Notes: generated from the letters alone by a model not told the origin. Positions 7,486-54,011 are shown, numbered from the stretch's first letter. The stretch is DNA of 64,000 nt from Candidatus Multivorans sp. (GCA_965205295.1 OZ242167.1:2898097-2962096); one strand, 5' to 3'. Program-made: numbers and translations.

Positions 7486-7517
7486 CCGGATGCGGGCAGG
7501 ATGCCCGCGTTCCCAGG
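7486..7517. repeat. REP-like palindromic element copy A (CCGGATGCGGGCAGGATGCCCGCGTTCCCAGG)
   Basis: 7-bp inverted arms GCGGGCA/TGCCCGC around GGA. Intergenic, between dctP and the TonB receptor. One of at least 5 copies. Confidence 0.7.
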
Positions 7518-7578
7518 ATCGGAGCAATGTGCCCTGCCTCGAAGCAACCCGCAACCGCGTCCAACGATCTGAACTTTA

Positions 7579-7607
7579 TTGACCTCCGCCGGCCGCAGCG
7601 CTAACTT
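7579..7607 (+). promoter_or_regulatory. candidate sigma70-type promoter for the TonB-dependent receptor gene (TTGACC - 17 nt - TAACTT)
   Basis: Hexamers and spacer read directly. Followed by a ~112-nt leader and RBS GAAGGAGGA before the ATG at 7720. Confidence 0.3.
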
Positions 7608-7719
7608 CGTTGGAACTTCGAACCCCACGTCCATAGGCATTCCGCTCGGTTAAGGTCAAGCCGACCTGTGAGATAGCACCGTCAAGAGAGTCGGAAGCCC
7701 GAGAAGGAGGAAGGCGCAT

Positions 7720-10506
7720 ATGAAGCACAGCAGAGCCACGGATTCTCGCTCCCTTGCCCCCGTGGCGAGCAGCACACTGATCATCTGCCTGGGGGCGCTC
7801 TTCGCCTTCGCGGGAGCGGCCGCATGGGCCCAGTCGATCGAGCGCGGCTCGATCACCGGCACGCTCACGGACCCGAACGGCGACCGGATGCCGGGGGTCA
7901 ACGTCACTCTCACGTCGACGGAGTTGGGAGCGACGAAGGAGACGATGACGGACGGGAACGGGCGCTACCGTTTCGTCGCCCTGCTGCCGTCCACCTACAC
8001 CGTCGAAGCCGCGATCGAGGGCTTCTCGACCGCCCAGCAGGGCGAGATCGAGCTCACGGTCGGCAAGAGCCTGACCGTCGACCTGACGATGCAGTTGGGC
8101 AGCGTCGAGGACGTGATCATCGTCGAGGGCTCGCCCCTGATCGATGTCCGCAGTTCTCAGCTCCAGACGACGGAGCTCAACAACGAGATCCTGATGGAGG
8201 TGCCCACCTCCCGGAGCATCCGCGGCATCGTCAAGCTGGCGCCCGGAGCGCACTCACTGAACCCCGACTCGAACTCCCACTCCGCTTTCGGCTCGTCCGA
8301 CCAGGGGATCCAGTACTCCGTCGACGGCGTGATCATCAACAGCCCGGAGGCGGGTGAAAGCGAAGTGAACCTCGGCTTCCTTTCGGTTGAGGAAGTCACC
8401 ATTCTCGGCGCGGGCGCCCCGGCCGAGTACGGCGGCTTCAGCGGCGTCATCGTCAACGTGACCACGAAGCAGGGCTCGAACGACCTGATCGGCCTGGTGG
8501 ACCTGCAGCTCGCGGACAACGACTGGCAGTCGCAGAACACGAACGACCCCGACCTGCAGCGAAGCGGCAGCGATCGCTCAGACACGGACGTGCACTTCGA
8601 CGTCGGCGGGCCGGTCCAGGCGGACAAGGCGTGGTTCTTCACCTCGGCCAGGCTCCGCAGAGAGAAGTCGAAGGCGTCCGAGGGCCATCCCAACGATCCC
8701 TCCTACGAGTCGCCCCGCATTGTCGGCAAGATCAACTGGGCGCCCTCGCAGGAGAAGATCTTCAGCGGGATGGTCGAGTACAGCACCCACGACGCGCTCT
8801 ACCAAGGCGCCGACGAGGGTGACTTTGTCTCCCCGAACGCGACCTTCAGCAACCTCCAGACCCAGTGGACCTACAACTTCAACTACACGGACATGCTGTC
8901 GTCCAACACCCTGCTCGATCTCAAGTTCGGCGGCTACCACCAGCGCCAGGACGAGCTGCCGGACAACGGCGACACACCGGCCCACTACGACGGCTTCGAG
9001 GACCGGCTGTCCGAGAACTGGTTCGGCCCCTTCCGGGCGAACCGGGAGCGCTACCAGATCGTCGGCTCGCTGAGCCACTTCACCGACGACTTCCTCAGCG
9101 GCGAGCACGACTTCAAGTTCGGCGTCGAGATCGAGAACACCCTGGTCAACACGCTCAGCGGGTTCTCGGGCGGCAAGTACTACTACGACTTCGCCGGCGA
9201 GCCGTACTTCCTGTACGAGAGCACCGGCTACAACACCTTCGGCGACACCGACCGCATGGCCGGCTACGTGCAGGACTCCTGGGGGATCAACGACCGGGTG
9301 CGACTGAACCTCGGCGTGCGGTTCAACTACTGGCGCGGCAATCTGGAATCGGACGTGAACGGCGTCCGCTTCGACCAGGGCACCGTGTTCACGCCCGACC
9401 TCGCCATCGCGCCCCGCGTCGGCCTGAACATCAACCTCGGCGACAACAACGACTCCGTGCTCAAGGCGCACTGGGGCCGCTACTACCACCAGGTCATCGC
9501 CCTCTTCTACAGCCGGCTGGCCCCCGAGAGCGACTTCACGGGCTACCTCTGGAATCCCGACGACGAGATCTGGGAACTCGACTTCTCGGAAGCCCGGGGG
9601 CCGGGCCAGTGGACGATCGACGACGGCCTCAGCGTGCCCTACATGCACGCCCTGGATGTCGGCTGGGAGAAGGTCCTGACCCGCACCGTGTCCCTCGACG
9701 TCACCGCGACCTACCGGACGAACCACGACTTCCTCGACGGCGTGAACCTGACCGGTGAATTCGAACCCGCGCGGTACACGGATCCGGACAGCGGACGGAC
9801 CTTCAACGTCCTCAACCAGACCAACGAGGGAGACAACCGCTTCTACTTCACGAACGTCGGCTACTGCGAGGACTACGGGCAGGCCTACAAGCAGCTCACC
9901 TGCTTCCGGAAGACGCGCAAGTACGCCGGCATCACGGCAAGCCTGTCCCGGCGCTGGCGCAACAAGTGGCAGATGCAGGCTTCGTGGACCTACGGTTCGG
10001 CCAGGGGTAGCGACAGCAACCTGCTGCTCGAGTTCCAGGAGGGGAAGGGCTCGTCGCTTGGCGGCTCGAACTTCTACACCGACCCGAACGAGCAGATCAA
10101 CGCCCACGGGAACCTGCCGATCGACCCGACCCATCTGATCAAGGTCGTGGGCTCCGCCGAACTGCCGGGCGGGATCGTCGTCGGCGGCTTCTTCCGGTTC
10201 TTCTCCGGCAACACCTACAACCAGCTCATCAGGGTGGAGGACGTCGATCAGCGTTCCGAGATCTTCGGCGCCCCGGGGGGTTCCTTCCGTCACGACGAGG
10301 GCATGAGCCTCGATCTGAGGCTCGAGAAGGACATACAAATAGGGGAGAACCGCAAGATCGGGGTGGGAATCGACATCTTCAACGTCGGTAATCAGGACAC
10401 CGTGATCGAAGCCGAACAGTCGCTCAACAGCGACCGGCCCTTCGGTGCCCCGACACGTCTCGTGCGTGGGCGGGTCTGGCGGCTGGGGGCGCGGTTCCAC
10501 TTCTAA
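7720..10506 (+). CDS. TonB-dependent receptor with N-terminal carboxypeptidase-regulatory-like domain
   Basis: Signal peptide. CarboxypepD_reg-like segment GSITGTLTDPNGDRMPGVNVTLTS...GNGRYRFVALLPSTYTV, then a plug region and a long beta-barrel. C-terminal aromatic residue (F). Confidence 0.8.
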   Translation: MKHSRATDSRSLAPVASSTLIICLGALFAFAGAAAWAQSIERGSITGTLTDPNGDRMPGVNVTLTSTELGATKETMTDGNGRYRFVALLPSTYTVEAAIEGFSTAQQGEIELTVGKSLTVDLTMQLGSVEDVIIVEGSPLIDVRSSQLQTTELNNEILMEVPTSRSIRGIVKLAPGAHSLNPDSNSHSAFGSSDQGIQYSVDGVIINSPEAGESEVNLGFLSVEEVTILGAGAPAEYGGFSGVIVNVTTKQGSNDLIGLVDLQLADNDWQSQNTNDPDLQRSGSDRSDTDVHFDVGGPVQADKAWFFTSARLRREKSKASEGHPNDPSYESPRIVGKINWAPSQEKIFSGMVEYSTHDALYQGADEGDFVSPNATFSNLQTQWTYNFNYTDMLSSNTLLDLKFGGYHQRQDELPDNGDTPAHYDGFEDRLSENWFGPFRANRERYQIVGSLSHFTDDFLSGEHDFKFGVEIENTLVNTLSGFSGGKYYYDFAGEPYFLYESTGYNTFGDTDRMAGYVQDSWGINDRVRLNLGVRFNYWRGNLESDVNGVRFDQGTVFTPDLAIAPRVGLNINLGDNNDSVLKAHWGRYYHQVIALFYSRLAPESDFTGYLWNPDDEIWELDFSEARGPGQWTIDDGLSVPYMHALDVGWEKVLTRTVSLDVTATYRTNHDFLDGVNLTGEFEPARYTDPDSGRTFNVLNQTNEGDNRFYFTNVGYCEDYGQAYKQLTCFRKTRKYAGITASLSRRWRNKWQMQASWTYGSARGSDSNLLLEFQEGKGSSLGGSNFYTDPNEQINAHGNLPIDPTHLIKVVGSAELPGGIVVGGFFRFFSGNTYNQLIRVEDVDQRSEIFGAPGGSFRHDEGMSLDLRLEKDIQIGENRKIGVGIDIFNVGNQDTVIEAEQSLNSDRPFGAPTRLVRGRVWRLGARFHF

Positions 10507-10524
10507 CCGGCTACGCTCCCGTCC

Positions 10525-12891: not shown

Positions 12892-12902
12892 GTGTCCACC
12901 GG

Positions 12903-14654: not shown

Positions 14655-14712
14655 CCCTGTGGCACGATCAACCGCCATTGCCGCCAACACTGGCCTCCGA
14701 GAGAATGCGCCC

Positions 14713-14994
14713 ATGAAGTCCATCACTGTTCGCGAACTGCAAAGCCCCTCCGCCGACGTTTGGGGAATGCTCGCAAAGGAGAAAGACCTCGTCGTCCGGT
14801 CCAACGGCGAGCCGGTCGCGGTACTTTCCGCGGTCACTGCCTCGACGCTGGACGCGGCCCGTGCAGCACTTCGGCAAGCTCGGGCTCAAGCGGCGGTCGC
14901 CGGAATGCAGCGCCGCGCTGCTGAGGTCGGCCTTGACGAGTGGAGCCCGGAGGACATCAACGCCGAGATCAATGCCTCCCGTCGAGAAAAATGA
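14713..14994 (+). CDS. Phd/YefM-like type II antitoxin (putative)
   Basis: 94 aa. MKSITVRELQ...DLVVRSNGEPVAVLSAV matches the Phd/YefM beta-alpha N-terminal pattern. Lies immediately upstream of a PIN-domain gene in an A/T-richer islet. Confidence 0.55.
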   Translation: MKSITVRELQSPSADVWGMLAKEKDLVVRSNGEPVAVLSAVTASTLDAARAALRQARAQAAVAGMQRRAAEVGLDEWSPEDINAEINASRREK

Positions 14995-15096
14995 GGATCG
15001 TCGTCGCTAGCCTTGTCGCTCACTGTGCAGTCGCGACAGTCAGATCAACCGAATCGTCCCCCGGCGAGCAGGGACCACACTACCGATCGAGATACG

Positions 15097-16119: not shown

Positions 16120-16235
16120 GCGTCGCGGATCGTTGCCGCGCCTAGGGTTTTACGGTTTCCGGGCCGCACAATGTACCCATGTCGCATAGTCAATCGTGGT
16201 AGACATGGAGACATGATAGAGCTAAGATAGAAGCC

Positions 16236-20937: not shown

Positions 20938-20951
20938 TCTGCCGCCGCGCC

Positions 20952-32844: not shown

Positions 32845-32845
32845 C

Positions 32846-34612: not shown

Positions 34613-36037
34613 TCACCGGACCAGGATGAGTTCCTGCTGCGGCGGCGACAGGAACTCGATGCCGTCCTCCGTCGCGAGCGCTTCCTCGTGGTCCCACCAC
34701 AGGAGGTACTGGTCCTCGCCCTCCGGGGCCGGCGAGGGCATGTAGAAGAAGTACTCGATGACGAAGTGGTGGTACGGCGCGAGCGGGATCTCCCTCGACC
34801 AGTCCGGGCCCAGGGAGCCGATCCGGGGCCCGAAGTAGGTCTCGACCGACTCGGGCCCGGCACCCTTCATCTGGCCGTGGGAGTCGATCGAGATGTGGGT
34901 CTTCGTGGCGTCAGAGTCGGCCGCATACGCCGGGAAGTCGTTCTTGGCTGACACCATGTGGAGCTGGTTGTCGCGGACGACGATCCCGGCCTCCTCGAAT
35001 CTGCGCGTGTAGTCGCCGATGATCTCGCGCGGCGTCAGGCCGGCCCGAATCGTCTCGGCCAGGATCGCGTCGACCTTCAGGTACTCGTCCCAGAGCTTCT
35101 GGATCTCGGGCGGCGGCTCCGTCTCGCCCTCGCGTAGCACGTAGGCGTACATGCCGATGCTCGGGTTGGTGAGGATGTCGCCGTCCTGGACCACGGCGTC
35201 CTCCCAGCCTTCGCTGCGGCCGCGCTGGGACTGTCCCGTCTTCATCCGGCGCATCACCGTGAGCTCGGCGTCGTCGGTCCGGGTCACGCCCGGCTCGATC
35301 GCAGCCACGGCCTCCTCGAACCGCTCGAGTTCGTCCTGCCGCATCCGCTTCAGCAGCTCGACCTCGCTCGGTACGTGGCGGTTGATGTAGTCCATCATCA
35401 GCCACTCGGACGAGATGAGCCGGCTCGCGTACTCCGCGCCGAGTTCCTCGGACAGGAGCACGTAGTCGGTGTGCGAGAGGCCGTCGATCTCGCCCCGGTA
35501 GGTCACCCAGGGGCCGAGGTCGTGCTTGAAGTTGACGGCGATGACTTCCGGGTCGCGCGCGGCGACGAAGTCCTTGAGTCCCACGAAGCGGTAGTCGTAC
35601 TCGGTCGTCGGACCGCCGACCGGCTCCTGGACCCGGACCGCGGGCGCTGTGATGTCGTAGGCGCCGCTCGCTTCCACGTACCGGTAGTCCCTCTCGCCCC
35701 AGCCGCGGTGGGCGGCGCCCCAGCGCCGGCCGAGCACCGCCCGTTCGATCCGGTCGCCGCCGCGGTCGGTGAACACGAAGACCCCGGACGTGCTGCCGAG
35801 TTCGTGGGCGCCGAACGGGTCCGGCACCGCCTCCCGCATCACGTGGATCCACATGTCGACGCCGCGCTCCCGCATGATCTCAGGGAGGACGACGTCGAAC
35901 TTGTCGCGGCGGATCTGGTGGTTCTCGGCTTCGTACCGGGCGGGAGCAAGTGGCTGGTCCTGAGCGGTTGCCGGTGCCGCTACGGCCAGAGCGAACAGCA
36001 GGCAGAACATCTGTGCTCGCTTGGTCTTCGAGTTCAT
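34613..36037 (-). CDS. secreted hypothetical protein
   Basis: ATG with GAGGT RBS. Signal peptide MNSKTKRAQMFCLLFALAVAAPATAQ. No motif recognised confidently. Confidence 0.5.
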   Translation of the reverse strand: MNSKTKRAQMFCLLFALAVAAPATAQDQPLAPARYEAENHQIRRDKFDVVLPEIMRERGVDMWIHVMREAVPDPFGAHELGSTSGVFVFTDRGGDRIERAVLGRRWGAAHRGWGERDYRYVEASGAYDITAPAVRVQEPVGGPTTEYDYRFVGLKDFVAARDPEVIAVNFKHDLGPWVTYRGEIDGLSHTDYVLLSEELGAEYASRLISSEWLMMDYINRHVPSEVELLKRMRQDELERFEEAVAAIEPGVTRTDDAELTVMRRMKTGQSQRGRSEGWEDAVVQDGDILTNPSIGMYAYVLREGETEPPPEIQKLWDEYLKVDAILAETIRAGLTPREIIGDYTRRFEEAGIVVRDNQLHMVSAKNDFPAYAADSDATKTHISIDSHGQMKGAGPESVETYFGPRIGSLGPDWSREIPLAPYHHFVIEYFFYMPSPAPEGEDQYLLWWDHEEALATEDGIEFLSPPQQELILVR

Positions 36038-36060: not shown

Positions 36061-36092
36061 CCGGATGCGGGCGAGACGCCCGCGTTCCCAGG
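36061..36092. repeat. REP-like palindromic element copy B (CCGGATGCGGGCGAGACGCCCGCGTTCCCAGG)
   Basis: Intergenic between two minus-strand genes. The arms carry a compensatory pair relative to copy A (GCGGGCG/CGCCCGC). Confidence 0.7.
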
Positions 36093-36126: not shown

Positions 36127-36993
36127 CTACTCACCGGTGAACTCATACGGCTCGATCACCAGCGGGGCGCCTTCGTACTTCCCGTCAGGAATCACGGTCG
36201 CCAGACTGTACTCGGGGCGGCTCAGAACCTCGAACAGGACCGGCTCCCCCACCTGCACCTTCTCGCGCGTATTCAGCGGCCACTCGTGGCCGATCTCGTC
36301 GAGCCGCCCTGGGAAGTCCTGAGCGCCGATGAAGGACGTGTACACCCAGTAGATGTACTCCGCCGCCATGCAGCCGTAGTCGCAGGTCTCGTCGTCGTAG
36401 GTGTACCAGGCGCCTTCCGGATACTCGTCCGGGGGTCCGTCGAAGCGGCCGCCGCGCGCCTTGTCCATGGCGTCGGTCAGCTCGGAGCCCGGCTCCAGAC
36501 CGAAGGTCTCCGGATAGGCGACGGCGAGGCCGTTGTCCGTGATCATGTGGAAGATCTCCTCGAGCGAGGCGTCGAAGACACCCCGCTCCCGGGCGTCGAT
36601 CCGGGTCTCCTCGTCGTACAGACCCTGACCCCGGGGCGCGTTGGCCCAGTCCATCTCGTGCGCCTCGTCCTGCGTACCGGTCATCACGATCGTGCCCCCG
36701 GTGTCCAGCATCGCCTGGTGGATCTTCGGATTGTCGACCTCGCCGTCCTCGTCGTTGTCGAGAAACTGCGCCAGGACGCCGGCCGCGTGCAGGAGCTTGT
36801 CGTCGCCGGTCGTGTTCGTGGCCAGGATCGGCACGCCGTGGACCATCACCTTCTTGACCCAGGCGATTTCGCTTGTCGCCGGCTCGGTCGCGTCGGCGGC
36901 GCCAGCGCCTTCGTCCGGCGCCGCGCCGCAGGCAACAACGATCACGAAGACCAACAGCTCCGAGGCGAGACGTTGGCAGTTTCGAGGCTTCAT
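36127..36993 (-). CDS. hypothetical lipoprotein
   Basis: Start at M9 gives MKPRNCQRLASELLVFVIVVACG (lipobox). No recognised domain. Confidence 0.5.
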   Translation of the reverse strand: MKPRNCQRLASELLVFVIVVACGAAPDEGAGAADATEPATSEIAWVKKVMVHGVPILATNTTGDDKLLHAAGVLAQFLDNDEDGEVDNPKIHQAMLDTGGTIVMTGTQDEAHEMDWANAPRGQGLYDEETRIDARERGVFDASLEEIFHMITDNGLAVAYPETFGLEPGSELTDAMDKARGGRFDGPPDEYPEGAWYTYDDETCDYGCMAAEYIYWVYTSFIGAQDFPGRLDEIGHEWPLNTREKVQVGEPVLFEVLSRPEYSLATVIPDGKYEGAPLVIEPYEFTGE

Positions 36994-37077
36994 GGTTCGT
37001 CCTCCTTGCAGCGTCATAGCTGCTCTTGTTGCATCATCCGCGCCCGGTCAGGCCGTGGCGGCCGGCTCGCGGCGGCC

Positions 37078-39080: not shown

Positions 39081-40475
39081 TCAGTCCTGCAGGTACAGCT
39101 CCCAGAAGCTGGCTTGCCCCTCGTCTCTCGAGCGGTTCACGATCTTCCCATCCTTGATCACCATGGACAGGCTGCGCATGTGCGAGATGTGCTCGAGCGG
39201 GTTCTTCTCCAGCACGATCAGGTCGGCGAGCTTGCCGGCCTCGACCGTGCCGAGGTCGTCGAGCATCCCCATCATCTCGGCGCTGTTGCGGGTCGCGGCC
39301 TGGATGGCGCCCATCGGCGGAATGCCGTGGAACGCGAGCTGTTCGATCTCCAGGATGCCGATCTCCGAGATCGGATTCGAGTCGCTGCCGGTGGTCAGGC
39401 GGACGCCTGCGGCGTACGCCTTGTTGATCACGTCGCGGGCCAGCTCCGCCCGCTCCTGGCTCCGCTCGTCGGCGTGCGACACCCGCACCCGGCCTTCGAC
39501 GACCTCCGGCGCGTCGACGTAGCCGGCCTCCCGGATCAGCCGTTCCCGTTCGGCGATGAACTCGGTGCTCAGGTTGCACTGGATGGTCGGATCGAGGAAG
39601 GTCCCTGCCTCGGCCATCATCCGGATCGTGTCGTCGGAGAGGTCGTTGCCATGCTCGATGCTCTCGGCACCCGCCATCACCGCGATCCGGGTGGTCTCGT
39701 CGCCGGCGTGAACGGTGACCGGGATGCCGTGTCGATGGGCCTCGTCGATGCCGGCGATCAGCTCTTCCGGCGGCATCCGGCTGCCGAGGAACTTGATGAG
39801 TTCGGCCCCGTTCGCGATGTTGTCAGCGACCACGGCGCGAATGCCCTCCGGCCCCTTGCCGGTCCGCACCAGCCAGTCCGTGTCCCCGTCGGTCGAGAGC
39901 GGCGGTCCGCCTGCAACGATCCTGGGTCCGACGAAGACGCCGGCATCGAACGCCTGCTTCCAGGCCACGTCCATGAAGTCGCGCTCGCCGGTGATCCGGA
40001 GCGTCGTGAAGCCGGCCTTGAGCGCGTCCATCGCGTTGCGGCCGGCGCGAATCGCCGCACGCAGCAGCGGCTCGTCGGGCAGCAGGCCCTTGGGGTCGGG
40101 CAGCAGGTCGCCGAGGTGGGAGTGGTTGTTCCACAGGCCGGGCAGGACGTAGGCGCCGTCCAGGTCGATCACCCGCGCATCGGCGCCCGGGTCGGGCGCG
40201 GAGGCCGAAGGCGTATGGATCGCCGCGATGCGGTTCCCCTCGATGACCACCGTGGCGTCCTCGATCGGCGGCGCGCCGGTGGCGTCGATCACCGTGGCGT
40301 TGGTGAGGACGGTTGTCTGGGCAAAGGCCGGAGCAGCCGAAGCGAGCAGCACCGCTGCCGAGAAGAAGAGGAAGCGACACCTCGGCTGGACACGGACCGG
40401 CCTGCGGCCGGATGCGGGCAGGATGCCCGCGTTCCCAGGGAAGGCTCCGCGGTGTTTCTTCGTGTTCCGCTTCAT
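39081..40475 (-). CDS. metal-dependent amidohydrolase family protein (paralog 1)
   Basis: Strong RBS GAAGGAGGA 6 nt before the ATG at 40475. LPGLWNNHSHLGD metal-binding HxH motif. The N-terminal n-region contains an in-frame REP-like element encoding FPGNAGILPASGRR. Confidence 0.75.
   Translation of the reverse strand: MKRNTKKHRGAFPGNAGILPASGRRPVRVQPRCRFLFFSAAVLLASAAPAFAQTTVLTNATVIDATGAPPIEDATVVIEGNRIAAIHTPSASAPDPGADARVIDLDGAYVLPGLWNNHSHLGDLLPDPKGLLPDEPLLRAAIRAGRNAMDALKAGFTTLRITGERDFMDVAWKQAFDAGVFVGPRIVAGGPPLSTDGDTDWLVRTGKGPEGIRAVVADNIANGAELIKFLGSRMPPEELIAGIDEAHRHGIPVTVHAGDETTRIAVMAGAESIEHGNDLSDDTIRMMAEAGTFLDPTIQCNLSTEFIAERERLIREAGYVDAPEVVEGRVRVSHADERSQERAELARDVINKAYAAGVRLTTGSDSNPISEIGILEIEQLAFHGIPPMGAIQAATRNSAEMMGMLDDLGTVEAGKLADLIVLEKNPLEHISHMRSLSMVIKDGKIVNRSRDEGQASFWELYLQD
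40408..40439. repeat. REP-like palindromic element copy C, lying inside the 5' coding region of the amidohydrolase gene
   Basis: Identical to copy A. Translated in-frame as PGNAGILPASG. Confidence 0.65.
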
Positions 40476-41898: not shown

Positions 41899-41959
41899 CG
41901 CAACGAATCGTCTACTGTACACGGCCGATCCACGCCGGGCGCCTGCGGGCGATGCGCGT

Positions 41960-43845
<1,886 letters not shown>

Positions 43846-43849
<4 letters not shown>

Positions 43850-46704
43850 CCGCCCGCTCCGGCGACCCCCGGCCGGTCGCCTTCGAAGCGCCCGGGCCGG
43901 TGCAGGTCGTAGATCACGATCGCCTCGGCCGCGTGATCGGCCGCCGCGTCGGCGCGTCTGGCGGCGGCGATTGCCCGGTCCCGGGCGTTGTCGTCCGGCC
44001 TGTACTTCGCATGAAGTTCCTGGTGGCGCTCCGCGCCCTCGCGATCGCCAAGCTGGCCGTAGATCAAACCCAGGTTGTAGTGGGCAGTGACGTTCTCCGG
44101 GTCGATGACCAGGGCGCTCTCGAACGACTCCCGCGCCTCGTTGAGCCGCGCCGCGCGCGCCTCGGCGCGGGCAGGGCCCCGCTCGCGCTTGGCGCGCTCG
44201 AACAGAGCCAGACCGAGCTGGTTCTGCAGCCGCACGTCGCGGCTGAAGTCGAAGCCGCGGCGCCGCATCTCCTCGCTGTCGGCGTCGAGGATCGAGCGGA
44301 AGTTCGCGATCGCCTCGTCGACGGCGCCGTTCTGGAAGTTGACCAGCCCGGTGAACCACGCGACCGACCACGCCGCAGCCGCCGGGTCGAAGGTGGCGGC
44401 CCGCTCGAGGGCCGCGATCGCGTCGTCGGTGACCGTGCCCTGCGCCAGGTAGACGCGGGCGAGGTTGAGCGGTCCGTCGGGACGGCCTAACTCCTCGACC
44501 CGGGTGAACGCCTCGATCGCCTGCCGCAGCTCGCCGCGGCCGGTGCCGCCCTTGCGCAGGAGGCCGATGCCGTAGTCGTTCCAGCGTTGCCAGAGAGGCT
44601 TGGCGGGTTCGCGGACCTCCGGACCGGATGCGGGCGAGACGCCCGCGTGCCCAGGGGCGGAGGCGCCCGCCACCGGGAAGGTCACCGTGTCCCGGGCCAG
44701 GTCGAGAATCGGCAGTTCGTTCACCGTGTCCTCGCCGTAGATGTAGCGCAGGTACGTCGTGTCGAACTTGCGGTAGCGGAGCGTCGCCTCGACGGTCAGG
44801 CTGCCCGTGGCCGCCGCCGGCGGTACTTCCAGCCGGTAGTGGACCACGTCGCCCGCCCCCGGCGGGATCTGATGGTCGTACAGCGGCACGAAGATGTCCT
44901 CGGCGTTGCGGCGATCGATCCGCGCGCCGTCGCGGTCGAGCATGTAGACGTTGATGAAGTGGGACCAGGGGTCGACCCGGTTGCCCTCGCCCAAACCGCC
45001 GCTCCGCCCCACCAGCCGGCCGCTGTCGTCGCGCACCGCGATGTCCAGCCAGAGCTGGTTGGAGTCAACGGTGCCCTGGGTCAGGTGATGCCCCAGACCG
45101 AGGGTGCGTACAACGACCTCCAGCAGATAGTCCTCGCCCGCCTCGAGCGCCGGTATCTCGGGGCGCACCGGCGCGATCACCTCGTCCTCGATCGCGCCGC
45201 CCGGCTTGACGCCGAAGATGTCCACGTCGACGACGCCCTCGTTGAACTCGCGGTGCGCCTCGATCACCCAGTCCGGAAAGTCGAGCAGGTGGGGAATGCC
45301 GGTGTTGGCGGACGGGAACAGGTGGTCGTGGACCTGGGTGACATCAGGCTGTTCGCTCTCCGGGTGGCGGCGAGAACCGAAGTCGTCCGACGGCAGCAGG
45401 TCCATGTGGCAACCGTTGCAGTTCGGCTCGGCCTCGGGCGGGTAGTAGAAGCTCGCCACGCCGTGGCCCGAGACGCCGGAGAGCAGGTGCGAGTCGTAGT
45501 GGTTCTGTCCGCGCAGGAACTTGTAGTGGTTGAGTTCCTCCGGCAGGTGGACCTTGTGGCATGTGCCGCAGAACTCCGCCGTCGTGTGCAGGGGCTTGAG
45601 GAAGGTCCGTTTGTGCAGTTCGGGCTTCGCCTTGACCAGTTGGTGGTTGACGAACTGGAGGAAACCGGGCTCCGCGAACGCGAACGGGTAGTGCTGGGGC
45701 TCCTCGATCGTGTAGTCGGCGTTGCCGCGGGGACTGTTGACGTGGGTGATCGCGTGGCAGGACGTGCAGGTGATGCCGGCGTGCGCGGCCGGCTGCTCGA
45801 CATCGAACTCCGGGTCGTCGAAGGCGCCCGAGAAGAAGACCACCGGATCGTGGCAGCCGGCGCAGAAGCGGGACGCCTGCACGTCGCCGGAGCGCTCGTA
45901 CGCCTTGTCGCGGGTCTCCTGGACGGAGAAACTGTAGGCGGGGTTGTTGAAGGAGCTGAAGCGGTGGGCGCTGTAGGTCCAGCGGCCGTGGATGTCGGCA
46001 TGGCAGTCCACGCAGTAGGCGTCGTTCATCAACGCCCGCTCGGGGATGAAACCGCCGCTCGCGGTGCGCGCCAGGGCCGGGAAGAAGTACTGCTCTCCCG
46101 ACTCCGGACCTTCCACGTTCCACGCCCGCGGATCCTGGAACTGCAGCACCAGCGCCACGCCGACCAGAACCACGGCGGCGGCCGCCACGCGCGCACCGAT
46201 CCGCCAGTTGATTCGCTTGCCGGCGAGCCGGTGCAGCACGAACAGCCAGGCAGCCACCAGCGGCGCCAGGACGTGCAGCCAGTAGGCCACGCCGCGGACC
46301 GCCGGGTCGTTCACCGTGATGACCCCTTCGATCCGGGTCAGCACGATGCCGCTCAGAAGGAGCACGAGCGCCGTCCCGAACAGCGCATACCCCACCTTCA
46401 CCGCGCGCCGGTTGGGTCGATTGCGCGCGTTCCGCATGTGCGCCAGACCGAACCAGATCACCGGCGCCACGAACAATCCCCCCACCGCCAGGTGAAGCAG
46501 AAACATCGAGATGTAGAACCAGTTCTGGTAGGTCGCGCCGGTTGCCGCCTCGGCAACGCGAACGCCGGAGAGGTAGAACGAGTTCACCGCCAGCAGAGCG
46601 AACAGTCCGAAGACCACCCACAGGAGCGGTTTCAGCCTGGGGCCGATCGCCGGCCGGTAGCGCCGGCGTGCGGGCGGCTTTGCGCCGCCCGCGCTCGCTG
46701 TCAC
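43846..46704 (-). CDS. membrane-anchored multiheme cytochrome c fused to C-terminal TPR repeats
   Basis: GTG start overlapping the PBP stop. N-terminal TM helices. Five CxxCH sites (CVDCH, CAGCH, CTSCH, CGTCH, CNGCH). C-terminal TPR units. The interdomain linker contains REP-like copy D in-frame. Confidence 0.7.
44624..44655. repeat. REP-like palindromic element copy D, inside the coding sequence of the multiheme-TPR gene
   Basis: CCGGATGCGGGCGAGACGCCCGCGTGCCCAGG. Read on the minus strand it encodes PGHAGVSPASG in the gene frame, with no stop codons. Confidence 0.6.
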
Positions 46705-48506: not shown

Positions 48507-48568
48507 GCTTCAGTAGCCCGCATCGTTCGCCGCGGTGAGGGCGGCACGGCGCACGTCAGCAGCCGGGC

Positions 48569-50098: not shown

Positions 50099-50201
50099 TG
50101 CAATCCTCCCGTCAGTCTGCACTCACGACCGGAACACAACATCGTACTGGACACCGCCGCGTTTCGCCGCCAGCCGACCGTGGGCTACGCTCCGCGCTGC
50201 C

Positions 50202-51398
50202 ATGACGACCGAAGCCGAGCGCCAGCCCGCGCCCCCCGACCTGCCCGCCTCGGTGCAGCGACTCGAACTCGACGAGCGGGAGGTCTTCCTGGTCGGCACC
50301 GCGCACGTCTCGCCGCAGAGCGTGCGCGACACGAAGGATGCGATCGAGGCGCTCGAGCCCGACACCGTCTGCGTCGAACTCTGCGAGGCCCGCTACCGCA
50401 ACCTGGAGGACCAGGAGTCGTGGCGCAAGCTGGACATCTTCCAGGTCCTGCGCGAGGGCAAGGCGGCGCTGCTGCTCAGCTCGTTCCTGATGCACTCCTT
50501 CCAGCGGCGGATCGCCCAGCGCTTCGGCATCGAGCCCGGCGCCGAGATGAGAGAGGCGATCGCCCGGGCCCGGGAACGCGGCGCACGCCTCGAACTGATC
50601 GACCGCGACATCCAGATCTCGCTGAAGCGCACCTGGGCCTCACTCGGCTTCTGGCAGCGAACGAAGGTGATGACCCAGTTGGCCGGCAGCGCCTTCGTCG
50701 GCGACGACCTGAAGGAAGAGGACATCGAGCAGCTCCGCGACAGCGGCAATCTGACCGACCTGATGTCGGCCCTCGCCGAGGCGCTGCCGAGCGTCAAGGA
50801 AGCCCTGATCGACGAGCGAGACGCGTACATGGCGGAGAAGCTGCGCCGGTCGGCGGGCCCGCGCACGGTGGCCGTCGTCGGCGCCGGGCATCTGCCCGGG
50901 ATCGCGAACCTCGCGGGCTCGTTCTGCGACCTGGAGGAACTCGAGCGACTGCCCGAGCCGCCGCTCTGGCCGCGCATCGTCAAGTGGGCTCTACCGATCG
51001 CGATCATCGGGCTTTTGGCCTACGGCTTCCTCACCGGTGATCGCGAGCGCTCGGTCGAGTCGATCTACCTCTGGATCCTGATCAACGGCAGCTTGTCCGC
51101 CCTCGGCGCCGCCATTGCCCTGGGGCATCCGTTGACGGTCCTTTCCGCCTTCGCCGCCGCGCCCCTGACCAGTTTGAACCCCCTGATCGCCGCCGGCTGG
51201 GTCGCCGGCCTGGTCCAGGCCGTGCTCCGCCGGCCTCTCGTGGCGGACATGGAGAACCTCGCCGACAGCCTCAGTTCCGCGCGCGGCTTCTGGTCCAACC
51301 GTCTTACCCGCGTGCTGCTCGTTGTCGTGCTGAGCAACCTCGGCAGCGTGCTGGGCACCGCGGTCGCCCTGCCCTGGATCGCCGCGCGATTGCTCTAG
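50202..51398 (+). CDS. TraB/GumN family protein
   Basis: ATG at 50202. EVFLVGTAHVSPQSVRDTKDAIEALEPDTVCVELCEARY is the TraB-family N-terminus. C-terminal TM segments. Confidence 0.75.
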   Translation: MTTEAERQPAPPDLPASVQRLELDEREVFLVGTAHVSPQSVRDTKDAIEALEPDTVCVELCEARYRNLEDQESWRKLDIFQVLREGKAALLLSSFLMHSFQRRIAQRFGIEPGAEMREAIARARERGARLELIDRDIQISLKRTWASLGFWQRTKVMTQLAGSAFVGDDLKEEDIEQLRDSGNLTDLMSALAEALPSVKEALIDERDAYMAEKLRRSAGPRTVAVVGAGHLPGIANLAGSFCDLEELERLPEPPLWPRIVKWALPIAIIGLLAYGFLTGDRERSVESIYLWILINGSLSALGAAIALGHPLTVLSAFAAAPLTSLNPLIAAGWVAGLVQAVLRRPLVADMENLADSLSSARGFWSNRLTRVLLVVVLSNLGSVLGTAVALPWIAARLL

Positions 51399-51508
51399 CG
51401 GCTGCCTGAGCAGCGACTGGACAAGTCTCCGAGACCCTGGCGGGGCGCTTCGCGCAGACCCTGATTGCACTCGGTGCATGCCAGACTGATCCCCAACCGA
51501 GGAAGCCA

Positions 51509-51549
51509 CCGGATCCTGCGGGCAGTCCGGATGCAAGATGTCCTTGCAT
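51509..51549. repeat. degenerate REP-like/palindromic sequence upstream of the XRE-ImmA gene (CCGGATCCTGCGGGCAGTCCGGATGCAAGATGTCCTTGCAT)
   Basis: Contains the CCGGAT and TGCGGGCAG pieces of the REP family. Also carries a separate palindrome ATGCAAG-ATGTC-CTTGCAT. Confidence 0.35.
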
Positions 51550-51612
51550 TGTCCCATCCGCAACGACTATTCTTGCTCCGCCAACTCTGACCCGGAAGGA
51601 GTGGCCGACACC

Positions 51613-52743
51613 ATGACGACGTCCCCGATCGGCGCGCGGATCAAGGCGCTACGCGAGCAGCACGGACTCACGCAGGAGCAACTCGCCCGCGTCTTCGGCT
51701 TCAAGGACCGTCAGACCGTCTCGGCAATCGAGAACGGCACCCGTCGCTTGACGGCAGAAGAACTGCTCCTCGCCGTCGAGAAGTTCCGCGTTTCGCTGCA
51801 CTACTTCACCGACCCCTTTCTGCTGGTCGGCGAAGGACGGTTCTCGTGGCGCCACTCGGGACTGACTGACGAGGAACTCCTCCAGTACGAGCGGCGCGCC
51901 GGCCGCTGGATCGCCGCGTATCGCCACTTGGCACCTCAAGTTGGTGTTGCAGCACCATTCCTGCGCCGCTCGCTTCCACTGAAGAAGAACTCTAGCTACG
52001 AGGCCGCCATGGCGGCTGGAGAGCGGTTCGCGGACGAGTTTGAAGTCGGTCCGACGCCCGCGGAGAGCCTGGCCCGGGTCATGGAACAGGAATTCGGGAT
52101 CCTGGTTCTGATGGTGGATGCCGAGCCAGGGATCTCTGGCGCGGCCTGCCGCCTTCCGGAACTGGACGTTGCGCTCATCGCCCGCGGAGAGGTCGCCGGC
52201 CGCCGCCACTTCGACCTCGCTCACGAGTTCTTTCACCTTCTTACCTGGCAGGCCATGCCACCCGAGCACTCGGAGCACGCCAGTAACACCAGTCGCAGTC
52301 GAGTGGAGCAACTCGCAGACCATTTTGCCGGCGCTCTACTGATGCCAGCGGCCGTCATCAAGCGGTACGGCCCATGGTCAGACCTCGACGAGGAAGCGTT
52401 GGTCGTGCGTCTAAACAACGTCGCGGATGGACTTCAGGTCACCTCGTCCGCCCTGCGCTGGCGCCTGGTCGCACTCGGGGAGATCAGCAAGAGCGCTGGC
52501 ACCTCACTGCCCGAGACGGCGCTGCGCAACAACGGTCGTCCAAGCGTCGAAATCAACGATGGGGCCATCAAGATAGACCGGCCACCAGCCCGTTTCTCGC
52601 GCCGCTTCACCGAAGTCATCTCCCGAGCGGTCGAACAAGGACTCATCTCCCTTCGCCGCACGGCGTCTCTGCTCGAATCTCCCGTCGAAGGTGTCGGCGA
52701 CCTGTTCGCCGAGCATGGTCTCAAGCGTCCCGTCGAACTGTGA
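51613..52743 (+). CDS. XRE-family HTH fused to ImmA/IrrE-family zinc metallopeptidase (COG2856-like)
   Basis: N-terminal HTH (IKALREQHGLTQEQLARVFGFKDRQTVSAIENG). HEFFH zinc motif in DLAHEFFHLLTW. Confidence 0.75.
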   Translation: MTTSPIGARIKALREQHGLTQEQLARVFGFKDRQTVSAIENGTRRLTAEELLLAVEKFRVSLHYFTDPFLLVGEGRFSWRHSGLTDEELLQYERRAGRWIAAYRHLAPQVGVAAPFLRRSLPLKKNSSYEAAMAAGERFADEFEVGPTPAESLARVMEQEFGILVLMVDAEPGISGAACRLPELDVALIARGEVAGRRHFDLAHEFFHLLTWQAMPPEHSEHASNTSRSRVEQLADHFAGALLMPAAVIKRYGPWSDLDEEALVVRLNNVADGLQVTSSALRWRLVALGEISKSAGTSLPETALRNNGRPSVEINDGAIKIDRPPARFSRRFTEVISRAVEQGLISLRRTASLLESPVEGVGDLFAEHGLKRPVEL

Positions 52744-52749
52744 TTTCCG

Positions 52750-52842
52750 ATGCCTCCTCATCCCGGTCCCGTCCTCGTGGACACGAACGTCATCTTCGAG
52801 TGCCACCGCACGAATTCCTGGCGCGCCCTGACCAGCGGCTGA
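52750..52842 (+). pseudogene. remnant of a PIN-domain (VapC-like) gene
   Basis: A 30-codon ORF, MPPHPGPVLVDTNVIFECHRT..., has a PIN N-terminal motif and stops early. A +1-frame continuation (...RLTEKITAVPLKKIREIKVAN) also ends early. Too short for a PIN fold. Confidence 0.4.
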
Positions 52843-52947
52843 CGGAGAAGATCACCGCGGTCCCGCTCAAGAAGATCCGCGAGATCAAGGTGGCAAACTG
52901 AACGAAGCGCCCCTGACCAACGGGGCAGGCACCAAGGGAGTTGATTC

Positions 52948-53655
52948 ATGACGGAACCGACCACCTACGAGCAGATTGGCGACGTGGCCCTGGTCACCCT
53001 GGACGACGGCAAGGCCAACGCCTTCGGACCGCCCATGATCGCCGCCGTCAACGACATGCTCGACCGTGCCGCAGACGATGCCAGAGCCATCGTCCTGACC
53101 GGCCGGCCCGGCGTGTTTTCGGGCGGGTTCGACCTCAACGTGTTTCGTGCCGGAGACGCGGCGCAGGCCCGCGCCATGGGACTCGCCGGAGCGCGTCTGA
53201 TGATGCGCCTGTACGGATGGCCGCAGCCCCTGGTCGTCGCGGCCAGCGGACACGCCATCGCGCTCGGCGCGCTCTGTCTGCTCACCGGCGATCATCGCCT
53301 GGCTGCGGACGGTGAGTTCCGATTCGGTCTGAACGAGGTCGCGATCGGTAGAACGCTGCCGCCGTTCGCCTGGTTGCTGGCCAAGGAGCGGCTTTCCAAG
53401 CGCGCTCTGACGCAAGCCGCTCTTACCGCGAAGATGTACAACCCCGAGGGCGCGCGCGATGCCGGTTTCCTGGACGCGGTCGCGGCGGCCGACGAGCTGC
53501 GCGATGTCGCCCTCGAGCGGGCCGCGCAGTTGGCCGAACTCGACGCCAATGCGTATTCGGGAATGAAGCAGGGCCTGAGAGGCGAAGGCATCGACGCCGT
53601 CCTTGCCGATCTCGGGGAGGCGCCGCCAGATGGCGCCGCTCTGATCCCGGCCTAG
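52948..53655 (+). CDS. enoyl-CoA hydratase/isomerase (crotonase) family protein
   Basis: RBS AAGGGAG. VALVTLDDGKANAFGPPMIAAVNDMLD...GRPGVFSGGFDL oxyanion-hole region. Confidence 0.8.
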   Translation: MTEPTTYEQIGDVALVTLDDGKANAFGPPMIAAVNDMLDRAADDARAIVLTGRPGVFSGGFDLNVFRAGDAAQARAMGLAGARLMMRLYGWPQPLVVAASGHAIALGALCLLTGDHRLAADGEFRFGLNEVAIGRTLPPFAWLLAKERLSKRALTQAALTAKMYNPEGARDAGFLDAVAAADELRDVALERAAQLAELDANAYSGMKQGLRGEGIDAVLADLGEAPPDGAALIPA

Positions 53656-53690
53656 AACCGCCTACACCGCTACAATTGTCGGACTCTCAA

Positions 53691-53954
53691 ATGGTGCCGA
53701 CGATGAACAAGGAAGCCACGGTCCAGCAAGTCCAGCTCATGGGCCACCGGATCCGGCGGCTGCGGCGGAAGAACAAGCTGACGCAGCAGGCGCTGGCGGA
53801 GCGGGTCGGGATTCCGCCGTCCGACCTGTCGCGGATCGAGCGGGACGAGCTCCGGGTCAGCCTGGATGTCCTGATCCGCATCGTCGCCGAGTTCGATGTC
53901 GGGCTCGACGAGTTGATGGGCAAGCCGGCAGGCGCACGGCGCGGCCGGCGCTAG
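53691..53954 (+). CDS. XRE-family HTH transcriptional regulator
   Basis: LTQQALAERVGIPPSDLSRIERDE is a Cro/C1-type HTH. The track start at 53676 is TTG; the first ATG is at 53691. Confidence 0.7.
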   Translation: MVPTMNKEATVQQVQLMGHRIRRLRRKNKLTQQALAERVGIPPSDLSRIERDELRVSLDVLIRIVAEFDVGLDELMGKPAGARRGRR

Positions 53955-53979
53955 CCACTTGCGCGGTAGAACTATCTGA

Positions 53980-54011
53980 CTTGGGAACCCGGGCATCTTG
54001 CCCGCATCCGG
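53980..54011. repeat. REP-like palindromic element copy E (opposite orientation, one stem mismatch)
   Basis: CTTGGGAACCCGGGCATCTTGCCCGCATCCGG is the reverse complement of the family consensus. Intergenic between the XRE gene and pgi. Confidence 0.6.

What the first reader, a model, noticed from the sequence alone, without database searches (positions are those of the whole stretch)
7486..54011. Dispersed ~32-bp hairpin-forming palindromic element (REP-like) with compensatory stem variation
At least five copies of CCGGAT-GCGGGCR-NGA-YGCCCGC-GTTCCCAGG occur: 7486-7517, 36061-36092, 40408-40439, 44624-44655 and 53980-54011 (inverted), plus a degenerate relative at 51509-51549. Copies A and C have arms GCGGGCA/TGCCCGC. 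Copies B and D have GCGGGCG/CGCCCGC, a compensatory pair that preserves the hairpin. That pattern argues for structural selection rather than chance. Most copies sit between convergent or tandem genes, as REP/BIME-type elements do. The element is not arrayed, so it is not CRISPR.
Basis: seen in the sequence. Interest (0 to 1): 0.7.

Follow-up and report, generated by a model that had tools for sequence, protein, structure and literature searches.

The report
REP hairpin repeats with cognate transposase
The repeated 32-base hairpin is a genuine REP-type miniature mobile element of the uncultured acidobacterial genus Candidatus Multivorans: sister genomes hold its partner transposase gene (RAYT) flanked by copies, its conserved flank differs from the classical REP tag, and some copies sit in frame inside working genes.

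Summary
All five copies exist at the stated coordinates; chance expects none. The sixth, "degenerate" copy is probably not a member. The window is 95-98% identical to a Candidatus Multivorans chromosome (Acidobacteriota, Thermoanaerobaculia). The CCGGAT-extended form was found only in that genus plus one related MAG: at least 104 copies in 63 fetched loci, from a truncated scan. Two sister genomes carry a Y1/HUH tyrosine transposase gene (RAYT; HVH and YIEGNP motifs) flanked by inverted clusters of this element, the defining REPtron arrangement. Copies are present or absent between close relatives. Intergenic copies lie mostly between convergent or same-direction genes. Relatives carry insertions in a homoisocitrate/isopropylmalate-type dehydrogenase, PGI and a helicase, plus tandem arrays of 26-57-nt units. 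The family lacks the canonical GT[AG]G foot; it has a 9-nt foot, CCYGGGARC. That foot, with different compensated stems, flanks related RAYT genes in MAGs labelled Verrucomicrobiae, Chloroflexota and Planctomycetota. The 27-nt core occurs in at least 120 metagenome contigs, often as REPIN-like doublets. Verdict: a REP/RAYT system, a non-canonical variant of a known kind, of moderate interest.

The parts
7486..7517 (+). REP copy A (subtype AGGAT), 30 nt after the stop (7455) of the + gene 6463..7455 and upstream of the + gene starting ~7720
   Evidence: The orthologous copy is conserved in L021 (OZ253534.1).
36061..36092 (+). REP copy B (subtype GAGAC), between two minus-strand genes: 35 nt after the stop of 36127..37017 and 23 nt before the ATG (36037) of 34613..36037. 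The mRNA would read CCTGGGAAC...
   Evidence: Absent from syntenic L121 and L119.
40408..40439 (+). REP copy C (subtype AGGAT), in frame inside the signal-peptide n-region of amidohydrolase gene 39081..40475 (-), where it encodes PGNAGILPASG
   Evidence: Window, L121 and L119 share the same RBS and ATG AAG CGG AAC start, and only the window has the insert.
40397..40411 (+). Companion hairpin H2 (CCGGCC-TGC-GGCCGG), whose 3' arm shares the CCGG of copy C
   Evidence: An H2-type hairpin accompanies 30% of copies against 2% in shuffled controls.
44624..44655 (+). REP copy D (subtype GAGAC, foot GTGCCCAGG), in frame in the linker between the multiheme-cytochrome and TPR parts of gene 43846..46704 (-), where it encodes PGHAGVSPASG
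   Evidence: Across orthologues it is absent from the 943-aa clade and from all 65-69%-identical orthologues, truncated in L034 and P0006, of the other subtype in L121, and a tandem doublet in L120.
44658..44670 (+). Possible remnant of a truncated second unit (CGGAG GCGCCCGC) next to copy D. This is an inference.
   Evidence: The 24-nt deletion in L034 lies between the CGCCCG direct repeats.
53980..54011 (-). REP copy E (subtype AAGAT, 2 mismatches including one at the stem base), between the convergent genes 53676..53954 (+) and 54036..55664 (-, PGI)
   Evidence: The whole 82-nt spacer is missing in L121. The orthologous element is inverted in L120.
54008..54024 (-). Companion hairpin H2 of copy E (CCGGCGC-TTC-GCGCCGG on the element's strand)
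   Evidence: H2+H1 folds at -18.7 kcal/mol as ssDNA
53961..53972 (+). One surviving arm (GCGCGGTAGAAC) of the outer inverted repeat that encloses H2+REP in relatives. The partner arm is missing in the window.
43846..46704 (-). Host gene of copy D: multiheme c-type cytochrome (five CxxCH motifs) with a C-terminal TPR domain, 952 aa
39081..40475 (-). Host gene of copy C: secreted amidohydrolase, 464 aa
51520..51549 (+). It is a local hairpin (GCAAG/CTTGC) without the foot and is judged not to be a family member.

Best explanation
The element is a REP (repetitive extragenic palindrome) family that a REP-associated tyrosine transposase (RAYT, a Y1/HUH single-strand DNA endonuclease-ligase) spreads and maintains in Candidatus Multivorans genomes. 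The functional core is a perfect 7-bp GC stem with a 3-4-nt loop plus a conserved 9-nt foot: 5'-CCTGGGAAC-GCGGGCR-TCN-YGCCCGC-3'. The window's + strand shows this as ...GCGGGCRNGAYGCCCGC-GTTCCCAGG. The Multivorans copies carry an additional CCGGA(T) on the other side, and about a third carry a second hairpin. Shown here: the family, its hairpin, the RAYT gene flanked by inverted copies in sister genomes, presence/absence differences between close relatives, in-frame intragenic copies, and tandem arrays. Inferred by analogy with E. coli TnpA-REP and IS200/IS605: the enzyme binds the folded hairpin on single-stranded DNA, uses the foot as its recognition and cleavage sequence, and cuts and rejoins DNA so that hairpin-plus-foot units are copied to new sites, often next to existing copies. 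The element has no stop codon in any of its six frames. Units whose total inserted length is a multiple of three therefore survive in tolerant protein regions such as signal-peptide n-regions, inter-domain linkers and surface loops. Transcribed copies at 3' ends of genes may additionally act as RNA hairpins; this was not tested.
For: Five window copies against none expected. The stem-loop is stable as ssDNA at -9.9 to -10.6 kcal/mol, z about -3.2. phmmer with E. coli RayT against 4729 ORFs from 636 kb gave one hit, L025 2169..2813 (-), E = 2e-9. That protein matches Pfam Y1_Tnp at 33.7 bits (cut-off 23) and NCBIfam REP_Tyr_transpos at E = 1.9e-22, and its HVH and Y-x-x-x-N-P motifs align with E. 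coli RayT at 32% identity. The gene has an inverted copy 45 nt upstream and three tandem copies starting 2 nt after its stop. The 77%-identical homologue (L124) has about 9 tandem 26-nt units upstream and 2 copies downstream. The 69% and 62% homologues (L125, L126) are flanked by the same hairpin and foot. Polymorphism between relatives: L119 has 0 copies in 22.8 syntenic kb, L121 has 1 and L120 has 6. Sites B, C and D are empty in L119, site E is empty in L121, and new sites are filled in L021, L034 and L120. Intergenic placement is typical of REPs: 32 convergent, 28 unidirectional, 4 divergent, with a median of 52 nt to the upstream stop against 108 nt to the next start. Tandem arrays of 26-, 28-, 33- and 57-nt units show that hairpin plus foot is the repeating unit. 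The foot is conserved and the stems are compensated next to RAYT homologues in MAGs labelled as other phyla.
Against: No RAYT gene lies in the window, and none of the 120 best RAYT homologues came from a contig the size of the window's closest relative, OZ253534.1, so this lineage may have lost the enzyme. The NCBIfam score is 79.8 bits, just under the curated 80. The canonical 5' GT[AG]G foot of RAYT-associated REPs (PMC3733652, PMC6006769) is absent. No filled/empty pair shows a clean junction for the bare 32-nt unit: the indels are 45, 82 and 120 nt and include extra sequence, so some differences may be deletions rather than insertions. Orientation shows no bias relative to local GC skew (29 of 59 loci), which ssDNA transposition coupled to replication might have produced. 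Within the genus only one stem pair covaries. No biochemical activity has been shown.
Confidence: 0.88

Rival explanations
1. The hairpins are host-selected RNA elements, either U-tract-less terminators or 3'-end mRNA stabilisers. On this view they spread by ordinary duplication and recombination rather than by a transposase, and the RAYT association is incidental.
For: Intergenic copies lie mainly after convergent or co-directional genes and closer to the upstream stop. The hairpin is stable. Some copies are conserved at orthologous sites across species.
Against: No T/U run follows the stem. Copies occur equally in both orientations relative to transcription (14 against 14 for unidirectional sites). 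Copies also lie inside coding sequences and 5' of start codons. A 9-nt single-stranded foot is conserved far more strictly than a terminator needs. The element flanks RAYT genes in at least four independent genomes. A secondary RNA role is not excluded.
Confidence: 0.07
2. The element is the core of a MITE mobilised through terminal inverted repeats by a DDE-type transposase, and the short 32-nt copies are decayed fragments of it.
For: At site E and at L120 5331 the REP and its companion hairpin are enclosed by outer inverted repeats (up to 18 bp, GAGCTTGCGCGGCAGAAC / GTTCTGCCGCGCAAGCTC). L120 5331 is a clean insertion relative to the window, with CTAG on both sides. The inner segment is inverted between L120 and the window.
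Against: Only a few of about 108 copies have these outer repeats. Tandem arrays repeat hairpin plus foot only. The copies flanking RAYT genes lack the outer repeats. No DDE transposase was seen next to any copy.
Confidence: 0.03
3. The repeat reflects selection on a peptide module (PGNAGVSPASG), and the DNA similarity is a by-product of a shared coding motif.
For: Most of the well-supported intragenic copies use the frame that gives PGxAG(VS/IL)PASG, a flexible Pro/Gly/Ser-rich linker.
Against: Most copies are intergenic. Intragenic copies use all three frames of one strand and at least one frame of the other. The nucleotide sequence is conserved more strictly than the peptide. The same DNA flanks transposase genes.
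Confidence: 0.01

Closest known systems
REP/RAYT systems ('REPtrons') of Proteobacteria: E. coli REP/BIME with TnpA-REP (RayT), and Pseudomonas REPINs
   Same: A short GC-rich hairpin with a conserved single-stranded foot. Many dispersed copies lie mainly between convergent and co-directional genes. A Y1/HUH transposase gene is flanked by inverted copies. Subfamilies coexist within a genome, clusters occur, and relatives in metagenomes form inverted doublets (REPIN-like).
   Different: The foot is the 9-nt CCYGGGARC rather than the tetranucleotide GT[AG]G. The stem is a short perfect 7 bp without bulges. In Ca. Multivorans most copies are singletons or direct tandem arrays rather than inverted doublets. 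The host is an uncultured acidobacterial genus. The same foot is shared across MAGs labelled as several phyla, whereas classical REP families are described as genus- or species-specific (PMC3733652, PMC6006769).
Rickettsia palindromic elements (RPE) and other intragenic GTAG/CGTC-tagged REPs (Di Nocera et al. 2013, PMC3733652)
   Same: Palindromic repeats are inserted in frame into genes that apparently remain functional. The inserts fall in N-termini, linkers and loops, and occur as single, double or clustered copies.
   Different: RPEs carry a CGTC tag and, according to that paper, CGTC repeats are not associated with tyrosine transposase genes. Here a RAYT is associated and the tag differs. 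The hosts differ too (a metagenome-assembled genus versus an obligate intracellular bacterium), and the genes affected here are metabolic or secreted proteins rather than mainly DNA-repair genes.
IS200/IS605-family ends and their miniature derivatives (PATEs)
   Same: Hairpin-dependent recognition by a Y1/HUH enzyme on single-stranded DNA, no terminal inverted repeats on the core unit, and no obvious target-site duplication for the core unit.
   Different: The transposase gene is not part of a multi-copy IS: only single, diverged homologues were found among the loci held. The protein also has the class-2 Y-x-x-x-N-P motif of RAYTs rather than the Y-x-x-x-Q motif of IS200 (PMC6006769).

Membership tests
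REP/RAYT system (REPtron) | Short (20-40 nt) GC-rich palindrome able to form a stem-loop | tested here: met
   A 7-bp perfect stem with a 3-nt loop. ssDNA dG is -9.9 to -10.6 kcal/mol, z about -3.2, and at most 1 of 200 shuffles folds as well.
REP/RAYT system (REPtron) | Many dispersed copies per genome | tested here: met
   5 copies in the 64-kb window against 0 expected. A whole-genome count could not be made.
REP/RAYT system (REPtron) | Mostly extragenic, between convergent or co-directional genes, rarely between divergent genes | tested here: met
   32 convergent, 28 unidirectional and 4 divergent among 108 unique copies. About 10-15% are truly intragenic.
REP/RAYT system (REPtron) | Cognate RAYT gene flanked by the same REPs in inverted orientation | tested here: met
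   Met in sister genomes L025 (OZ251997.1) and L124, and in the more distant L125, L126 and L228. Not present in the window itself.
REP/RAYT system (REPtron) | Protein has HUH and catalytic Tyr (Y-x-x-x-N-P) motifs of class-2 Y1 enzymes | tested here: met
   MPNHVHVLI and TEYIEGNPVKAGL. Pfam PF01797 scores above its cut-off. NCBIfam NF047646 scores 79.8 bits against a cut-off of 80.
REP/RAYT system (REPtron) | Conserved 5' GT[AG]G tetranucleotide at the foot of the hairpin (canonical REPs: PMC3733652, PMC6006769) | tested here: not met
   The foot is CCTGGGAAC (CCYGGGARC in other phyla). No GTAG or GTGG is adjacent to the stem on either strand.
REP/RAYT system (REPtron) | REPIN organisation (two REPs in inverted orientation forming a long hairpin) | tested here: inconclusive
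   The window copies are singletons, and Ca. Multivorans loci show mainly singletons and direct tandems. In metagenome relatives 66 of 105 adjacent pairs are tight inverted doublets.
REP/RAYT system (REPtron) | RAYT binds, cleaves and rejoins the REP as single-stranded DNA | not testable with these tools
   Requires biochemistry.
CGTC-tagged REPs / Rickettsia RPE | CGTC tetranucleotide at one end of the palindrome | tested here: not met
   No terminal CGTC. CGTC occurs only across the stem-loop boundary of one subtype on the reverse strand.
CGTC-tagged REPs / Rickettsia RPE | In-frame insertion into functional ORFs | tested here: met
   Window copies C and D, the dehydrogenase (a gap against PDB 3asj at query residues 113-131), PGI, a helicase, FG-GAP proteins and an aconitase-family small subunit.
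MITE | Terminal inverted repeats and target-site duplication | tested here: not met
   The core unit has neither. A minority composite form has outer inverted repeats of 12-18 bp with CTAG on both sides.
CRISPR array | Regularly spaced repeats separated by unique spacers, usually with cas genes | tested here: not met
   The window copies are 4-29 kb apart. The arrays in L102 and L124 consist of identical 26-57-nt units without unique spacers.
Intrinsic terminator | GC-rich hairpin followed by a T/U run | tested here: not met
   The stem is followed by GTTCCCAGG on one strand and ATCCGG on the other.

The most novel reading that the evidence does not exclude
This may be the first recognised example of a REP superfamily defined by a 9-nt CCYGGGARC foot instead of GT[AG]G. 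It would be partnered with a widely distributed RAYT clade (thousands of homologues) found in MAGs labelled Acidobacteriota, Verrucomicrobiae, Planctomycetota and Chloroflexota. The foot stays fixed across these groups while the 7-bp stem is replaced by fully compensated variants, and one 27-nt form recurs in contigs from 37% to 71% GC. That would imply an unusually long and conserved RAYT recognition sequence, and either horizontal spread of REPtrons or very old vertical persistence. In Ca. Multivorans the family has also colonised coding sequences in all three frames of one strand.
Probability: 0.45. Interest if true: 0.6.

Novelty: new variant of a known kind. Interest (0 to 1): 0.45.

Why it matters
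REP/RAYT systems have been characterised almost entirely in Proteobacteria, using the GT[AG]G foot as the search key. Families with another foot are therefore missed by those automatic searches. A family with a long, cross-phylum foot and lineage-specific compensated stems separates the two things a RAYT must read: the shape of the hairpin and the sequence of the foot. It also gives a concrete substrate for biochemistry. The in-frame copies show how such elements add 11-residue Pro/Gly/Ser-rich or Arg-rich segments to enzymes and secreted proteins. On the practical side, they cause annotation errors: public gene calls for the RAYT homologues in L125 and L126 run straight through REP arrays, because the element has no stop codon in any frame.

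Tried and rejected
(1) A viral-contig scan with the flank-anchored pattern gave three hits, all without a hairpin, so they are chance matches. (2) Rfam at gathering thresholds found only two tRNAs in the window and no known RNA family at the copies. (3) Replication-linked orientation bias, tested as element strand against the GC skew of each 8-kb locus, gave 29 of 59 loci (p = 1). There is no support, though the proxy is noisy. (4) I looked for a target-site duplication or a fixed target for the bare unit. The recurrent CGGA downstream and CCGGA upstream looked like one, but the cleanest empty site (GAGA|CCGGA|CGAAG) does not show duplication. The downstream CGGAG is better read as the stump of a truncated second unit. 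(5) I tried to assign the RAYT to a published subclass (PMC6006769, Table 1) by motifs. NHVH, YIEGNP and a length of 214 aa fit no subclass cleanly, so this is left open. (6) The second repeat family, GCGCCCG-ATGA-CGGGCGC, is absent from the window. (7) The 'degenerate' sixth copy was rejected as a member. (8) CRISPR, terminator and peptide-motif readings were rejected, as set out under the rival explanations and the membership test.

Full report
OBSERVATION. A search with the degenerate 32-mer and up to three mismatches returns those five and nothing else, and none of 100 dinucleotide-preserving shuffles gave a match. Copies A (7486) and C (40408) read GCGGGC-A-GGA-T-GCCCGC. Copies B (36061) and D (44624) read GCGGGC-G-AGA-C-GCCCGC. 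Copy E (53980, minus strand) reads GCGGGC-A-AGA-T-GCCCGG. As single-stranded DNA the unit folds into a 7-bp stem with a 3-nt loop at -9.9 to -10.6 kcal/mol (z about -3.2), with a further GGA/TCC extension. A foot-anchored hairpin scan finds no additional copies in the window. The sixth, 'degenerate' copy at 51509-51549 has a different stem and no foot, and it aligns with orthologous DNA of a relative that has no copies at all. I do not count it as a member.

WHERE THE COPIES SIT. The window is 67% G+C, so I called genes by codon-position G+C.
- Copy A lies 30 nt after the stop of a plus-strand gene.
- Copy B lies between two minus-strand genes, 35 nt after one stop and 23 nt before the next ATG.
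- Copy E lies between convergent genes.
- Copy C is inside a gene. It lies in the first 25 codons of a secreted amidohydrolase (MKRNTKKHRGAF-PGNAGILPASG-RRPVRVQPRCRFLFFSAAVLLASAAPAFAQ). Two syntenic relatives share the same ribosome-binding site and the same ATG AAG CGG AAC start but lack the insert.
- Copy D is also inside a gene. It lies at codon ~683 of a 952-aa multiheme cytochrome/TPR protein, in frame, and encodes PGHAGVSPASG in the linker before the conserved KPLWQRWNDYGIGLL motif.

COPY D ACROSS ORTHOLOGUES. I compared this linker across 120 orthologues.
- The element peptide is present only in the closest clade (about 91-98% identity).
- It is absent from a 943-aa sister clade and from all orthologues at 65-69% identity.
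- It is truncated in some orthologues (AGVSPASG). At the DNA level this is a 24-nt deletion between CGCCCG direct repeats.
- Two lineages have the other stem subtype at the same site (PGSAGILPASG).
- One genome has a tandem pair of exact 33-nt units, one of each subtype.

HOST AND DISTRIBUTION. I scanned one genome per species with a flank-anchored pattern that left the stem free. It returned the hairpin-bearing family only from Candidatus Multivorans MAGs (Acidobacteriota; Thermoanaerobaculia) and one related Thermoanaerobaculia MAG. About 50 hits in other taxa had no hairpin. The window is 95-98% identical to OZ253534.1.

In the 63 family loci plus the window there are 104 copies, 96 of them unique. 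The stem is essentially invariant. Only the seventh pair varies (G-C or A-T, never G-T), together with one loop position, giving the subtypes GAGAC, AGGAT, AAGAT, GGGAC and a 33-nt AGGGAT form. A formal pair count gives one covarying pair out of seven.

About 30% of copies carry a second hairpin (typically CCGGCGC-TTC-GCGCCGG) whose 3' arm is the CCGG at the start of the core, against 2% in shuffled controls.

Among 108 unique copies, 32 lie between convergent genes, 28 between co-directional genes and 4 between divergent genes. Their median distance is 52 nt to the upstream stop and 108 nt to the next start. This is the placement described for REPs (PMC3733652).

THE ENZYME. I took E. coli RayT from the K-12 record and searched it against all 4729 ORFs of the 636 kb then held. 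It gave a single hit, E = 2e-9: a 214-aa ORF in L025 (OZ251997.1).
- It has the HUH motif MPNHVHVLI and the tyrosine motif TEYIEGNPVKAGL.
- It matches Pfam Y1_Tnp above its cut-off.
- It matches the NCBIfam 'REP-associated tyrosine transposase' model with E = 1.9e-22, at 79.8 bits against a curated cut-off of 80.
- It aligns with RayT through both motifs at 32% identity.

The gene is flanked in the REPtron manner. An inverted copy (CCTGGGAAC-hairpin-ATCCGG) lies 45 nt upstream of the ATG. Three tandem copies (CCGGAT-hairpin-GTTCCCAGG) start two bases after the stop. Each side is capped by a second hairpin family, GCGCCCG-ATGA-CGGGCGC.

Its 77%-identical homologue lies on the same contig as the syntenic locus L120. 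It has about nine tandem 26-nt units upstream and two copies downstream. Homologues at 69% and 62% identity are flanked by the same hairpin and foot but without CCGGAT. The window itself has no RAYT. No close homologue was seen from a contig the size of OZ253534.1 among the best 120 hits, so the window's own lineage may lack the enzyme. Loss of the gene is documented for E. coli strains in PMC6006769.

MOBILITY. Three syntenic loci fetched through the cytochrome orthologues show large differences over the same about 23 kb: L119 has no copies, L121 has one and L120 has six.
- Sites B, C and D are empty in L119.
- Site E, together with its whole 82-nt spacer, is missing in L121, where the two stop codons abut.
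- L021, 98% identical to the window, has an extra 120 nt containing a copy exactly where two window genes overlap by ATGA.
- L034 and L120 have a 45-nt insert containing a copy in the N-terminal tail of the FG-GAP protein.
- L120 has a copy inside PGI.
- L120 also has a clean insertion of a ~92-nt composite: outer inverted repeats around the second hairpin and the REP, with CTAG on both sides.

Indel lengths inside coding sequence are multiples of three (33, 24, 45, 120). L102 holds 22.5 tandem copies of a 28-nt unit (hairpin, foot and two bases) and 5.5 copies of a 57-nt composite. These facts fit an element that is gained, lost and amplified locally. However, no junction shows a clean insertion of the bare 32-nt unit, so the exact cut sites remain unknown.

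INTRAGENIC COPIES. The element has no stop codon in any of its six frames. Well-supported internal copies lie in several genes:
- the cytochrome/TPR protein;
- a homoisocitrate/isopropylmalate-type dehydrogenase, where the alignment to PDB 3asj breaks at query residues 113-131 around TWERGRLARIR;
- an aconitase-family small subunit;
- PGI;
- a helicase, which has two copies between its domains;
- an FG-GAP protein;
- a DUF1156 protein.

All three frames of the CCTGGG strand are used: PGNAGVSPASG, WERGRLARIR and LGTRASRPHP. One well-supported copy uses the other strand (PDAGETPAFPG). In the crude gene calls, 15 of 17 internal copies have the CCTGGG strand as sense. I read this as a filter for tolerable peptides, which is an inference. 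Several apparent N-terminal or internal cases are ORF over-extensions, for example L079, where the acyl-CoA dehydrogenase domain begins well downstream of the copy. Intragenic REPs as such are already documented (PMC3733652).

BEYOND THE GENUS. Their G+C ranges from 0.37 to 0.71 and their flanks are unrelated. The dominant foot is GCGCTCCCAGG rather than the Multivorans GCGTTCCCAGG. In these contigs 66 of 105 adjacent pairs are tight inverted doublets with the feet outermost, which is the REPIN architecture.

RAYT homologues of 53-58% identity from MAGs labelled as other phyla were then examined.
- Verrucomicrobiae, Chloroflexota and Planctomycetota MAGs have flanking hairpins with the same foot (GCTCCCRGG / CCYGGGARC) but different, fully complementary stems: GCCGGCA, GCCAGCA, GCCGCCA, GCGGGCC and GCGGACG.
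- The Oscillospiraceae-labelled contig has a similar hairpin with only a partial foot.

Across the loci held, 185 of 264 foot occurrences abut a perfect hairpin of at least 6 bp, against 0 of 14 in reversed-sequence controls, and 11 distinct stems occur. This is the real covariation signal. It indicates that the foot is read as sequence and the stem as shape.

COMPARISON WITH THE LITERATURE. Di Nocera et al. (PMC3733652) sort REPs into GTAG- and CGTC-tagged superfamilies. They describe REPtrons, intragenic REPs and clustered blocks, and in Acidobacteria they report only tyrosine-transposase genes flanked by inverted repeats. Quentin et al. (PMC6006769) find canonical 5' GT[AG]G REPs around five RAYT subclasses, atypical structures around two, and none around subclasses 2.1 and 2.3. 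The present foot is neither GT[AG]G nor CGTC. A full-text search for 12-15-mers of the element found only unrelated human TERT-promoter primers, and no paper in the library mentions Candidatus Multivorans. Supplementary tables and subscription journals were not covered, so prior description cannot be excluded.

VERDICT. It works like a REP/RAYT system. It fails one textbook membership feature, the GT[AG]G foot, so I file it as a new variant of a known kind. The steps from 'RAYT gene flanked by copies' to 'RAYT mobilises copies by single-strand cleavage at the foot' are inferred, not shown.

Noticed in passing
L025 2040-2075 and 2925-2960; L102 4894-5208; also L026, L066, L079, L115, L117: A second dispersed hairpin family, GCGCCCG-ATGA-CGGGCGC followed by ACGGACTGGTTCACGGG. 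It caps both ends of the RAYT locus and alternates with the REP in a 57-nt tandem array. It is absent from the window.
   Followed up: partly
window 53961-54030; L120 3950-4075 and 5290-5385; L007, L032, L086, L096: A MITE-like composite: outer inverted repeats of up to 18 bp (GAGCTTGCGCGGCAGAAC / GTTCTGCCGCGCAAGCTC) enclose the companion hairpin and the REP. The inner part is inverted in L120 relative to the window. A separate copy in L120 is a clean insertion with CTAG on both sides. The window retains only one arm.
   Followed up: partly
L102 1439-2068: 22.5 tandem copies (99% identical) of a 28-nt unit consisting of the REP hairpin, its foot and two bases. The first unit is preceded by CCGGA. 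It could be real amplification or an assembly artefact of long reads.
   Followed up: no
L125 3001-3819; L126 3001-4014: The public gene calls for these RAYT homologues (272 and 337 aa) run through flanking REP copies, because the element has no stop codon in any frame. These are likely annotation over-extensions.
   Followed up: partly
window 1720-2653 and 32845-33784: Two paralogous stretches, 71-79% identical. The second is orthologous to a gene annotated with an aldo/keto reductase domain in L120, which points to a duplicated reductase gene 31 kb apart.
   Followed up: no
window 12669-14654 and 41960-43849: Two FG-GAP/UnbV_ASPIC repeat proteins with internally repeated ~80-nt coding units. 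The second is translationally coupled to the cytochrome/TPR gene: its TTG start overlaps that gene's TGA stop.
   Followed up: partly
window 58888-58958 (-) and 62276-62364 (-): Two tRNA genes, the only Rfam matches in the window.
   Followed up: no
window 61365-61492: A GCC-rich low-complexity tandem stretch inside the long minus-strand ORF 60532..62247.
   Followed up: no
L025 2169-2813: The RAYT gene has lower G+C (0.62) than its surroundings (0.67). Homologues of 52-67% identity are very numerous and come from MAGs labelled as several phyla, which hints at horizontal transfer of the REPtron.
   Followed up: partly
window 51398-52938 compared with L120 5173-5388: The window gene at about 51614-52743 and its flanks are missing in L120, where about 215 nt containing the composite REP element stand in their place.
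   Followed up: no
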